A stretch of DNA of 64,000 bases from NCBI RefSeq assembly GCF_051903065.1, contig NZ_CP178438.1, one strand, 5' to 3'. Shown in pieces: positions 36,668 through 39,600 of this stretch. Each line of letters starts with the position of its first letter. The stretch's first letter is position 1. The stretch comes from Escherichia coli. GTDB lineage: Bacteria; Pseudomonadota; Gammaproteobacteria; Enterobacterales; Enterobacteriaceae. The position numbers are program-made.

Positions 36668-39600
36668 TACGATAGACACTTTGTAGGCCGGATACGCGCA
36701 GCGCATCCGGCAACCGGTTAGTGGTGCGAAGAGATCTTCACGCCGCCTTCCGGGATTGGAACGTACGGTGTTTCTTTGTCAGTACGTTTGTCGCTGTTAC
36801 GCACCGCAAGCCAGGTTTTGAAACCGTAGAAGATGATGCTGTACACCACAATCAGGAACAGAATACTCAGGCCTGCGTTGGTGTAGTTGTTCACAACGAT
36901 GTGGTTCATGTTGGCAATCTGCTGCGCCGTCAAGTCAGTACCGTTAGCAATCTTCTCTTTGTACTGGCTTGCCATGTAGAAGAAGCCTTCCATCTGCGGG
37001 TTGGTGCTGAACAGTTTCAGACCCAGCGCCCAGGTGGTGCAGATAAGCAGCCATACAGCCGGAACAACAGTTACCCAGATGTATTGGGTGCGCTTCATCT
37101 TAATCAGCACAACGGTGCCCAGTACCAGCGCTACGGCTGCCAGCATCTGGTTGGAAATACCGAACAGCGGCCACAGGCTCTTAACGCCGCCCAGCGGATC
37201 GACCACGCCCTGATACAGCAGGTAGCCCCACAGACCCACACAGCCCGCAGTACCGATGATACCGGCAACCAGAGAGTCGGTTTTTTTCAGGAACGGGATG
37301 AAGTTACCCAGCAGGTCTTGCAGCATAAAGCGACCAGAACGGGTACCGGCATCCAGCGCGGTCAGAATGAACAGGGCTTCGAACAGAATACCGAAGTGAT
37401 ACCAGAAGCCCATGTCAGCCATCGGCAGCACTTTGTGGAACACGTGCGCGATACCTACCGCCAGTGTCGGCGCGCCACCTGCACGGTTCAGGACAGAAGG
37501 CTCACCAATGTCTTTCGCGGTTTGCAGGATCTGCTCTGGCGAAATCACGAAGCCCCAGGAGCTGACGGTTGCCGCCGCGTGTGCGGTAACGTCTTTCAGC
37601 TGCGCCATGATGATCGGCGCGTTCTCGCCACCCATTTCATGCAGGTTAGGCATGGTGATGCCAAGGCCAGCAGGCGGGGTATTCATCGCGAAGTAAAGAC
37701 CCGGTTCGATGATGGACGCAGCAACCAGCGCCATAATCGCCACGAAGGACTCCATCAGCATTGCGCCGTAGCCGATGAAACGCGCGTCGGTTTCGTTAGC
37801 CAGCAATTTCGGCGTCGTACCGGAAGAGATCAGCGCGTGGAAGCCAGATACCGCACCACAGGCGATGGTGATGAACAGGAACGGGAACAGAGCGCCTTTC
37901 CACAGCGGGCCAGTACCGTCAATGTACTGGGTCATCGCAGGCATTTTCAGTTCCGGGTTCAGCACCACGATACCCAGCGCCAGGCCGACGATAACGCCGA
38001 TTTTCAGGAAGGTTGCCAGATAGTCGCGCGGTGCGAGGATCAGCCACACCGGCAGCAGTGCGGAAACAAACGCATAGCCAATCAGCGCGAAGGTAATGGT
38101 GGTGTCTTTAAAGGTCAGTGCCGGACCCCAGTACGGATCGTGAGCAATCACGCCACCGAAGTAGATAGAGGCAACCAGCAGCACGATACCAATGACAGAG
38201 ACTTCACCCACACGCCCCGGACGGATAAAGCGCATGTAGATACCCATAAACAGCGCAATTGGTACGGTTGAGCAAACGGTGAAGACACCCCACGGACTTT
38301 CGGCCAGGGCTTTAACCACAATCAGCGCCAGGACGGCGAGGATGATGATCATGATTAAGAAACAGCCAAACAGCGCGATAGTCCCCGGTACTGGTCCCAT
38401 CTCTTCTTTGATCATCTCACCGAGAGATGCGCCGTTACGGCGAGAGGAGATAAACAGCACCATAAAGTCCTGAACCGCACCGGCCAGTACTACCCCCGCC
38501 AGCAGCCACAGCGTGCCAGGCAGGTAGCCCATCTGCGCGGCGAGAACCGGACCAACCAGCGGACCAGCACCGGCGATAGCGGCGAAGTGGTGACCAAACA
38601 ACACGTAACGGTTGGTCGGAACGTAGTTCAGACCGTCGTTGTTAATAACCGCAGGCGTCGCGCGCGTGGGGTCGAGTTTCATCACCTTCTGGGCGATGTA
38701 CAAACTGTAGTAGCGATACGCCACCAGATACACCGACACAGAGGCGACCACGATCCACAGGGCGCTGACGTGCTCCCCCCGACGTAATGCAACTACCGCG
38801 AGGCAGAATGCACCGATGATTCCGAGAATCACCCAGGGTATGTGCTTGAATAGTTTTTTCGTATCCATAGTAAAACCTGGCATTTTACTCGTCGTCTTTT
38901 GGCTTACAGGTGCGGCAGCTGCGTTCGTTCACCCCTGTCACTTACTGTTGTAAGCTCCCGGGGATTCACTCACTTGCTGCCTTCCTGCAAATCAAAATCC
39001 ATAGAGTAATTTGTTAATCATAGGCCGAAGCCGTTCTAGGTTTGCGTTGCGTTTGAGGAGGTAAATTGACCGCTATCCTGCAGTGATGTTGCCAGAGTTA
39101 CGCGCGCGTAAAGTAAGGTAAATAACTGAGTGGTTATATTAGGGATGTAAGCGGTCAGGAATGGCGGTGAGCGGTTGGGAAAGAATTATTCATCGGGTGG
39201 ATATGTGATTGAGATCACAATAAAAATGCCCCTTCGACGATTGCGTGAAGGGGCTGGAGCTTAAATCGCAGCTTCCATTTCCAGCATCACCGGATGGAAA
39301 CGGCGTTTAAAGTAGATAAGTCCGTGACCTTCTGCACTGAGGATGATGTTTTTAATCTCCACCAGATACACCAGATGTGTGCCAATTGCCTGCACATCGC
39401 GGATCTCACCTTCAAGACTGGCCAGCGAACCTTTCAGCACCGGCTGCGCCAGCGGACCTTTTTGCCAGCACGAGAGGCTAAAACGCTCTTCCATCGCCAT
39501 GCCCGTCATGCCCGCGAAGTGGCGCGCCATCAGTTCCTGCTCATGGTTGAGGACGTTGACGCACAACTTGCCGTTGCCCTGAAACACCGGGTTCATCGCA

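What the first reader, a model, noticed from the sequence alone, without database searches (positions are those of the whole stretch)
39148..39219. Paired regulatory signals upstream of btsT: a BtsR-type direct repeat plus a perfect CRP site
ACCGCTCA-N12-ACCGCTTA (on the btsT strand) matches the LytTR direct-repeat motif I recall for YehT/BtsR, and TGTGATTGAGATCACA is a perfect CRP consensus 29 bp further upstream. Both lie about 280-350 bp upstream of the btsT ATG, implying a long 5' leader that could carry additional (for example CsrA-type) control.
Basis: partly seen in the sequence, partly recalled or inferred. Interest (0 to 1): 0.3.

Follow-up and report, generated by a model that had tools for sequence, protein, structure and literature searches.

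The report
Known btsT promoter: BtsR repeats, CRP

Summary
Both motifs are at the stated coordinates and are far beyond chance. The window is E. coli, with btsT on the minus strand (ATG 38868) downstream of hpaC.

There are three ACCRCTYA copies at 20/21-bp spacing: R1 39175-39168, R2 39155-39148 and R3 39134-39127. The published YehT/BtsR site, as I recall it, is ACC[G/A]CT[C/T]A with a 13-bp spacer.

Across 80 Enterobacterales species all three repeats are conserved, as is a CRP site exactly 44 bp upstream of R1. A conserved extended -10 (TGgCAACAT, 39094-39086) predicts a start at about 39079. That is -88 in K-12, which matches the published reporter "PbtsT -212/+88".

The leader here is about 211 nt. 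Of this, 123 nt (38891-39013) is an ERIC insertion, absent from K-12 and present in 2062 of 5426 complete E. coli genomes.

Control of btsT by BtsR, cAMP-CRP and CsrA is already published, so the finding is essentially known. The minor new points are the conserved third repeat, which is degenerate in K-12, and the polymorphic ERIC in the leader. Interest is low.

The parts
39204..39219 (-). CRP site TGTGATCTCAATCACA (read on the btsT strand). Its centre is about -132.5 from the predicted start, and it begins 44 bp upstream of the start of R1.
   Evidence: It is the only perfect TGTGA-N6-TCACA in the window. It is conserved in K-12 and CFT073. An nGTGA-N6-TCACA sits at the same 44-bp offset in most of 80 species. 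btsT promoter activity falls in a crp mutant (PMC7730263).
39168..39175 (-). R1, ACCGCTCA: the upstream copy of the BtsR-type repeat, predicted at -96 to -89. It is GCCGCTCA in K-12 and CFT073.
   Evidence: The R1 position carries 0-1 mismatches in 74 of 81 sequences, against 0-5 of 81 at control offsets.
39148..39155 (-). R2, ACCGCTTA: the middle copy, predicted at -76 to -69. It is probably the upstream half of the published YehT/BtsR site.
   Evidence: It is the most conserved block across species and lies inside the K-12 SPR oligonucleotide.
39127..39134 (-). R3, ACCACTCA: the promoter-proximal copy, predicted at -55 to -48, 13 nt after R2.
   Evidence: R2+R3 is the only pair that fits ACC[G/A]CT[C/T]A with a 13-bp spacer.
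39086..39094 (-). Predicted extended -10 element, TGgCAACAT (TG at -15/-14, hexamer CAACAT).
   Evidence: The block TCTGGCAaGAT is conserved, with A at hexamer position 2 and T at position 6 in most species. The simple sigma-70 consensus scan found nothing, as expected for an activator-dependent promoter.
39079..39079 (-). Predicted transcription start (the A of cAGGATAG). The leader is 211 nt here and 88 nt in K-12.
   Evidence: It lies 7 nt after the conserved -10. In K-12 it equals -88 from the ATG, which matches the reporter 'PbtsT -212/+88' (PMC10653868). This is an inference, not a mapped start.
38891..39013 (-). ERIC (IRU) repeat element inserted in the btsT leader, 123 bp, forming a long imperfect hairpin.
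   Evidence: It is absent from K-12, CFT073 and O157 at an otherwise collinear site. It matches the ERIC1R and ERIC2 primer sequences with 2 and 3 mismatches. There is a weak full-length Rfam V_AS5 hit. The leader folds at -65.7 kcal/mol, z -3.4. It is present in 2062 of 5426 genomes.
39228..39254 (-). hpaC intrinsic terminator hairpin. Its U-run (39222-39226) ends just upstream of the CRP site.
   Evidence: The hairpin folds at -18 kcal/mol, z -4.5. The hpaC ORF is 39261-39773 and is annotated as such.
36718..38868 (-). btsT (yjiY) coding sequence, pyruvate/H+ symporter, starting at ATG 38868 (MDTKK...).
   Evidence: RefSeq annotation of matching genomes.

Best explanation

Proposed mechanism:
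- Phosphorylated BtsR, a LytTR-type response regulator, binds a head-to-tail array of ACCRCTYA boxes spaced two helical turns apart. R3 is at -55 to -48, R2 at -76 to -69 and R1 at -96 to -89.
- BtsR then recruits sigma-70 RNA polymerase to a promoter with a weak -35 region and an extended -10 (TGgCAACAT). Transcription starts near 39079.
- cAMP-CRP binds a core-consensus site centred at about -132.5, four helical turns upstream of R1. From there it most likely helps by bending the DNA or stabilising the upstream BtsR or alpha-CTD contacts. This gives catabolite control.
- The transcript carries an 88-nt ancestral leader. In this strain a 123-bp ERIC element interrupts it about 22 nt before the start codon.
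- CsrA is reported to repress BtsT synthesis after transcription.

Shown here: the sequence elements, their conservation and spacing, and the ERIC insertion polymorphism. Taken from the literature: dependence on BtsR, CRP and CsrA. Inferred: the start site, the use of R1 by BtsR, how CRP acts from -132.5, and any effect of the ERIC element.
For: - Motifs are present and non-random.
- The locus is annotated btsT next to hpaC in identical and near-identical E. coli genomes.
- The region is orthologous to the K-12 'yjiY YehT bs' oligonucleotide, which spans gCCGCTCA-N12-ACCGCTTA-N13-ACCACTCA.
- The alignment with K-12, CFT073 and O157 shows a conserved CRP site, R2, R3 and core promoter.
- In 80 species of Enterobacterales the three boxes keep 20/21-bp spacing and a CRP-like site sits 44 bp upstream of R1. 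The boxes and the CRP half-sites are information-rich, whereas the spacers are not.
- The R1 position has 0-1 mismatches in 74 of 81 sequences, against 0-5 of 81 at control offsets.
- The module persists although the upstream neighbour differs: tsr, hpaBC, recR, or others.
- The conserved TGgCAaGAT block places the start at K-12 -88, matching the 'PbtsT -212/+88' reporter.
- Literature: cAMP-CRP, CsrA and LeuO control of btsT; conservation of BtsR motifs in gamma-proteobacteria (PMC5552118).
Against: - No binding or start-site experiment could be consulted directly. The primary paper (Kraxenberger 2012) is not held, so the published motif and spacer are quoted from memory.
- The start site is inferred. 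It assumes the reporter's +88 end abuts the ATG.
- No sigma-70 consensus promoter passes the simple scan.
- A CRP centre at -132.5 is unusually far for direct class I activation.
- R1 is imperfect in K-12, where the system works, so R1 may be dispensable.
Confidence: 0.85

Rival explanations
1. The functional BtsR site is exactly the pair the first reader named (R1+R2, 12-bp spacer), and the downstream copy R3 is incidental.
For: - R1 and R2 are both perfect here, and a 12-bp spacer is within the LytTR range of 11-13.
- R1 is conserved across genera.
Against: - In K-12, where binding was demonstrated, R1 is GCCGCTCA and does not fit the ACC... motif.
- The degenerate positions [G/A] and [C/T] and the 13-bp spacer of the published motif (recalled from memory) are reproduced only by R2+R3.
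- R3 is as conserved as R2 and is the copy nearest the core promoter.
Confidence: 0.07
2. The CRP site does not serve btsT. It belongs instead to a neighbouring transcription unit (divergent tsr in K-12, or the hpa region here) or is a fortuitous palindrome.
For: - It lies about 132 bp upstream of the predicted btsT start, far for class I activation.
- In K-12 it sits in a divergent intergenic region shared with tsr.
Against: - Its distance to R1 is fixed at 44 bp in genera whose upstream neighbour differs in identity and orientation.
- Here the upstream gene hpaC is co-oriented and ends in a terminator 2 nt before the site, so there is no divergent promoter to serve.
- The K-12 reporter (-212/+88), which includes the site, loses activity in a crp mutant.
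Confidence: 0.06
3. The promoter is sigma-54 dependent. TGGCAACATCACTGCA (39094-39079) has the GG-N10-GC spacing of -24/-12 promoters.
For: The E. coli sequence fits TGGCA-N7-TGCA.
Against: - The GC element is not conserved: Salmonella has ...CCTCCA and Klebsiella has ...GTCCCC.
- What is conserved is TGn + CAnnAT, an extended -10.
- BtsR is a LytTR regulator without an AAA+ activator domain (established knowledge; domain description).
- Genomic SELEX with minor sigma factors lists only RpoS and RpoF peaks near yjiY/tsr in the text examined.
Confidence: 0.02

Closest known systems
E. coli K-12 yjiY (btsT) promoter with the YehT/BtsR-binding site (Kraxenberger et al. 2012, J Bacteriol 194:4272; oligonucleotide in Behr et al. 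2016, PMC4847170)
   Same: - It is the orthologous locus.
- R2 (ACCGCTTA), the 13-bp spacer length, R3 (ACCACTCA), the core promoter and the first ~65 nt of the leader are identical or nearly so.
- A CRP site is present at the same spacing.
   Different: - R1 is a perfect ACCGCTCA here and GCCGCTCA in K-12.
- The 28 bp between CRP and R1 belong to a different haplotype.
- The CRP spacer is TCTCAA here and TATGAA in K-12.
- The upstream neighbour is hpaC rather than divergent tsr.
- The leader carries a 123-bp ERIC insert, giving 211 nt against 88 nt.
LytTR response-regulator sites such as YpdB at yhjX (GGCATTTCAT-N11-GGCATTTCAT) and AgrA at P2/P3
   Same: Short direct repeats of 8-11 bp separated by 11-13 bp, about two helical turns centre to centre, lying upstream of a weak core promoter.
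   Different: - The box sequence is different.
- The array here has three conserved boxes, and four in some species such as L067, rather than the canonical two.
cstA promoter and leader (the paralogous pyruvate transporter)
   Same: It is cAMP-CRP dependent, with a CRP site unusually far upstream (about -80), and CsrA represses translation through the leader.
   Different: - cstA has no BtsR boxes and is not controlled by BtsS/BtsR.
- The CRP distance differs.
ERIC / IRU enterobacterial repetitive intergenic consensus elements (Hulton 1991; Sharples and Lloyd 1990; from memory)
   Same: - It is an imperfect palindrome of about 125 bp in a transcribed intergenic region.
- It matches the ERIC1R and ERIC2 primer sequences.
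- It shows presence/absence polymorphism between strains.
   Different: Nothing unusual for an ERIC. The point of note is its position, inside a leader reported to be under CsrA control, about 22 nt before the start codon.

Membership tests
BtsR (YehT) binding site of the btsT/yjiY promoter | Direct repeats of ACC[G/A]CT[C/T]A | tested here: met
   Three exact matches lie at 39175-39168, 39155-39148 and 39134-39127 on the btsT strand. The motif itself is quoted from memory of Kraxenberger 2012.
BtsR (YehT) binding site of the btsT/yjiY promoter | 13-bp spacer between the two repeats | tested here: met
The feature is met by R2-R3 (13 bp).
BtsR (YehT) binding site of the btsT/yjiY promoter | Orthology to the K-12 DNA shown to bind YehT | tested here: met
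   The window aligns without gaps to the K-12 region contained in the 'yjiY YehT bs' SPR oligonucleotide.
BtsR (YehT) binding site of the btsT/yjiY promoter | Physical binding by BtsR and BtsR-dependent activation | not testable with these tools
   This needs EMSA, footprinting or reporter assays with this allele.
cAMP-CRP site | TGTGA-N6-TCACA core | tested here: met
   A perfect core lies at 39204-39219 and is unique in the window.
cAMP-CRP site | Position compatible with class I or class II activation (-41.5, -61.5, -72.5, -82.5, -92.5) | tested here: not met
   The centre is about -132.5 from the predicted start. This implies indirect or co-activator-dependent action. The start itself is inferred.
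cAMP-CRP site | Evolutionary conservation with fixed phasing to the promoter | tested here: met
   An nGTGA-N6-TCACA sits 44 bp upstream of R1 in most of 80 species.
ERIC / IRU element | Imperfect palindrome of about 127 bp with the conserved central inverted repeat | tested here: met
   The insert is 123 bp. The ERIC1R and ERIC2 sequences match with 2 and 3 mismatches, and it folds into a long hairpin. The primer sequences are quoted from memory.
ERIC / IRU element | Dispersed multicopy family with insertion polymorphism | tested here: met
   Empty sites occur in K-12, CFT073 and O157. Partial 85-89% matches occur at other chromosomal places and on plasmids.
CsrA-regulated leader | GGA motifs, one overlapping the SD or start codon, bound by CsrA | tested here: inconclusive
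   GGA occurs at +2 and in AUGGAU at the start codon, and the ERIC adds three more. Motif counts alone do not show binding. CsrA control is reported for K-12 only in secondary sources.

The most novel reading that the evidence does not exclude
The native BtsR operator may be a three-box array (R1-R2-R3), phase-locked to a CRP site four helical turns further upstream and conserved across Enterobacterales. K-12, the strain in which the site was defined, carries a degenerate R1. On this reading the published two-repeat model under-describes the promoter. About 42% of complete E. coli genomes have a perfect R1, and most of those also carry the ERIC hairpin in the leader. These strains may therefore induce and translate btsT with different sensitivity from K-12.
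Probability: 0.4. Interest if true: 0.3.

Novelty: already known. Interest (0 to 1): 0.15.

Why it matters
The finding matters little. It recovers a promoter whose regulators (BtsR, cAMP-CRP, CsrA) are already published and whose BtsR motifs are already reported as conserved.

Three practical points remain:
- Common laboratory and wild strains, including a BL21(DE3) derivative, differ from K-12 at R1.
- The same strains carry a 123-bp ERIC hairpin in the leader, which could change mRNA stability or CsrA control.

Tried and rejected
- The primary paper (Kraxenberger 2012) and Behr 2014 could not be retrieved by PMC id, DOI or PMID. The motif is therefore quoted from memory and cross-checked against the K-12 sequence.
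- Genome-wide start-site supplements gave nothing. Kim 2012 has no yjiY entry in the held files, and Thomason 2015 is not held.
- My first guess for the -10 (TAACTC, 39100-39095) was dropped. It is not conserved, whereas TGgCAaGAT is.
- The sigma-54 reading of TGGCA-N7-TGCA was rejected for lack of conservation. The minor-sigma SELEX paper gives no support in the text examined.
- The simple promoter and terminator scan found nothing.
- A possible GcvB or other sRNA link to the CA-rich leader found no support in the literature.
- Rfam gave only a sub-threshold V_AS5 hit on the ERIC element.

Full report
**Observation**

The window around 39148-39219 was read on both strands.
- btsT lies on the minus strand. 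Its annotated ATG is at 38868 (MDTKK...), within the ORF that ends at 36718.
- The gene upstream, on the same strand, is a 170-aa ORF at 39261-39773.
- A megablast of 38800-39300 against 5,426 complete E. coli genomes gives a 100% match to strain 23CRST027. RefSeq annotates the two genes there as "btsT: pyruvate/proton symporter BtsT" and "4-hydroxyphenylacetate 3-monooxygenase reductase subunit" (hpaC).

The CRP-type palindrome TGTGATTGAGATCACA is at 39204-39219. It is the only perfect TGTGA-N6-TCACA in the window, against 0.03 expected.

The motif search also finds a third copy, ACCACTCA, at 39134-39127, 13 nt further downstream. A two-copy pattern is expected 0.00 times by chance in the window.

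One of the three repeats lies outside the reported coordinates, and the gap between the CRP site and R1 is 28 bp rather than 29.

**Which repeats are the published site**

The primary paper (Kraxenberger et al. 2012) is not in the held library. From memory, its abstract states that YehT binds two direct repeats of ACC[G/A]CT[C/T]A separated by a 13-bp spacer.

A later paper from the same laboratory lists the K-12 oligonucleotide "yjiY YehT bs". It reads ...GCCGCTCA-N12-ACCGCTTA-N13-ACCACTCA... (PMC4847170). In K-12, only ACCGCTTA-N13-ACCACTCA reproduces the degenerate positions and the 13-bp spacer. The upstream copy there is GCCGCTCA.

**Comparison within E. coli**

The window was aligned with K-12, CFT073 and O157.
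- R2, R3, the core promoter and the proximal leader are essentially identical.
- The CRP palindrome is retained at the same distance (TGTGATATGAATCACA in K-12).
- The 28 bp between CRP and R1 form two unrelated haplotypes of equal length.

The window-type haplotype (perfect R1) covers at least 80% of an 86-bp probe in 2260 of 5426 genomes. The K-12 type does so in 2633.

**Comparison across Enterobacterales**

One scan of species-representative genomes with the BtsT N-terminus returned 80 loci, from Escherichia to Proteus, Morganella, Erwinia and Rahnella.
- Nearly all carry three ACCRCTYA boxes at 20/21-bp spacing upstream of btsT. Some carry four.
- An nGTGA-N6-TCACA site lies exactly 44 bp upstream of the start of R1 in most of them.
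- Column information is high in R1, R2, R3 and both CRP half-sites, and low in the spacers.
- The R1 position has 0-1 mismatches in 74 of 81 sequences. Control offsets reach that in 0-5 of 81. The array was chosen by minimising mismatches, so these counts are somewhat inflated.
- The module is retained although the upstream neighbour differs: divergent tsr in Salmonella and Kosakonia, co-oriented hpaB/C in Klebsiella and Enterobacter, and unrelated genes in Erwinia, Proteus, Morganella and Rahnella.

This variation in neighbours argues that the CRP site belongs to btsT. Conservation of BtsR motifs in gamma-proteobacteria has already been published (PMC5552118).

**Core promoter and start site**

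The simple sigma-70 scan finds no consensus promoter, which is usual for activator-dependent promoters. The cross-species alignment downstream of R3 shows a conserved TCTGGCAaGAT block. This is TGn followed by a hexamer with A at position 2 and T at position 6 in most species, that is, an extended -10. In the window it is TGgCAACAT at 39094-39086.

A start 7 nt downstream falls at 39079, the A of cAGGATAG. Allowing for the 123-bp difference in leader length, this is -88 from the ATG in K-12. The Jung laboratory's reporter is described as "PbtsT -212/+88" (PMC10653868). If +88 is the last base before the ATG, the two estimates agree exactly.

Relative to that start:
- R3 spans -55 to -48.
- R2 spans -76 to -69.
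- R1 spans -96 to -89.
- The CRP centre is at -132.5.
- All of these lie inside the reporter fragment.

The start remains an inference. A sigma-54 look-alike (TGGCA-N7-TGCA, 39094-39079) is confined to Escherichia and was rejected.

**The "long leader"**

The window has 123 bp (38891-39013) that K-12, CFT073 and O157 lack at an otherwise collinear site. The O157 empty site reads ...TGATTAA|GAGTAAAATG....

Several lines of evidence identify the insert as an ERIC/IRU element:
- It matches the ERIC1R and ERIC2 primer sequences (recalled from memory) with 2 and 3 mismatches.
- It gives a weak full-length hit to Rfam V_AS5 (26.6 bits; the gathering threshold is 96).
- It folds into a long imperfect hairpin. 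The 230-nt leader has an MFE of -65.7 kcal/mol, z -3.4. The K-12 leader has -12.1 kcal/mol, z +1.1.

The ERIC-bearing leader occurs in 2062 of 5426 complete E. coli genomes, including a BL21(DE3) derivative. It also occurs in E. albertii and another Escherichia species. An ERIC about 70% identical sits at the same spot in Citrobacter portucalensis, while other Citrobacter species have an empty site.

The leader is thus about 211 nt here and 88 nt ancestrally, not 280-350 nt. Its extra length comes from a repeat-element insertion. GGA motifs occur at +2 and in the AUGGAU of the start codon, and the ERIC adds three more. CsrA control of BtsT synthesis is already reported in reviews and later papers.

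**Mechanism**

The best-supported reading has four steps.
1. BtsR~P occupies the phased boxes, certainly R2 and R3 and probably R1. It activates a sigma-70 extended -10 promoter.
2. cAMP-CRP, bound 40 bp centre-to-centre upstream of R1, assists indirectly. btsT promoter activity drops in a crp mutant (PMC7730263).
3. The hpaC terminator (39228-39254, -18 kcal/mol) insulates the promoter from upstream transcription.
4. The leader carries post-transcriptional control by CsrA.

Whether the ERIC hairpin changes mRNA stability or translation is untested.

**Verdict**

The finding is real but already known. The modest additions are the conserved third box, which is degenerate in K-12, the fixed phasing between CRP and R1, and the strain-polymorphic ERIC in the leader.

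Noticed in passing
window 38891-39013 (- strand): A 123-bp ERIC/IRU element is inserted in the btsT 5' leader about 22 nt before the ATG. It is absent from K-12, CFT073 and O157 and present in 2062 of 5426 complete E. coli genomes, nearly always together with the hpa cluster. It forms a long hairpin and adds three GGA motifs.
   Followed up: yes
L022 (Citrobacter portucalensis), about 20-150 nt upstream of btsT ATG at 1501: A second ERIC copy, about 70% identical to the E. coli one, sits at the same leader position and in the same orientation. Other Citrobacter species (for example L018) have an empty site. This means either recurrent insertion at one spot or an old insertion with repeated loss.
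   Followed up: partly
window 39168-39203, compared with L001 (K-12) 1172-1207: E. coli has two unrelated, equal-length haplotypes for the 28 bp between the CRP site and R1. R1 is a perfect ACCGCTCA in one (about 2260 genomes) and GCCGCTCA in the K-12 type (about 2633 genomes). The window's CRP sequence, TGTGATCTCAATCACA, is identical to that of Klebsiella, Raoultella and Lelliottia (L037), so it is probably ancestral.
   Followed up: partly
window 39222-39254 (- strand): The hpaC intrinsic terminator (GCCCCUUC...GAAGGGGC, -18 kcal/mol, then UUUUUAUU) ends 2 nt before the CRP site. The simple terminator scan missed it because its loop is longer than the scan allows.
   Followed up: yes
window 39023-39032 and 39051-39063 (- strand): The leader holds two conserved elements: a small GGC-UUCG-GCC tetraloop hairpin (Salmonella has CAGC-UUCG-GCUG, a compensatory change) and a conserved UACCUCCUCAAAC stretch that resembles the anti-Shine-Dalgarno sequence and is CA-rich. 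Their function is unknown. No sRNA link turned up in the literature search.
   Followed up: partly
window 39079-39094 (- strand): TGGCAACATCACTGCA mimics a sigma-54 -24/-12 promoter (GG-N10-GC). The GC part is not conserved outside Escherichia, and the block is better read as an extended -10.
   Followed up: yes
L067 (Pantoea coffeiphila); L069-L074 and L077 (Erwinia persicina, Proteus): Some species carry four phased ACCRCTYA boxes upstream of btsT, or boxes in shifted register, so the number of boxes varies between lineages.
   Followed up: no
L002 (O157:H7 TR01), about 1204-1220: The CRP site in this assembly reads TGTGATCTCAAT--CANA, with an N and a 2-bp gap. This is probably an assembly error rather than a real disruption. 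This strain also has a 180-aa hypothetical ORF (annotated CDS, 543 bp) between tsr and btsT in place of hpa.
   Followed up: no
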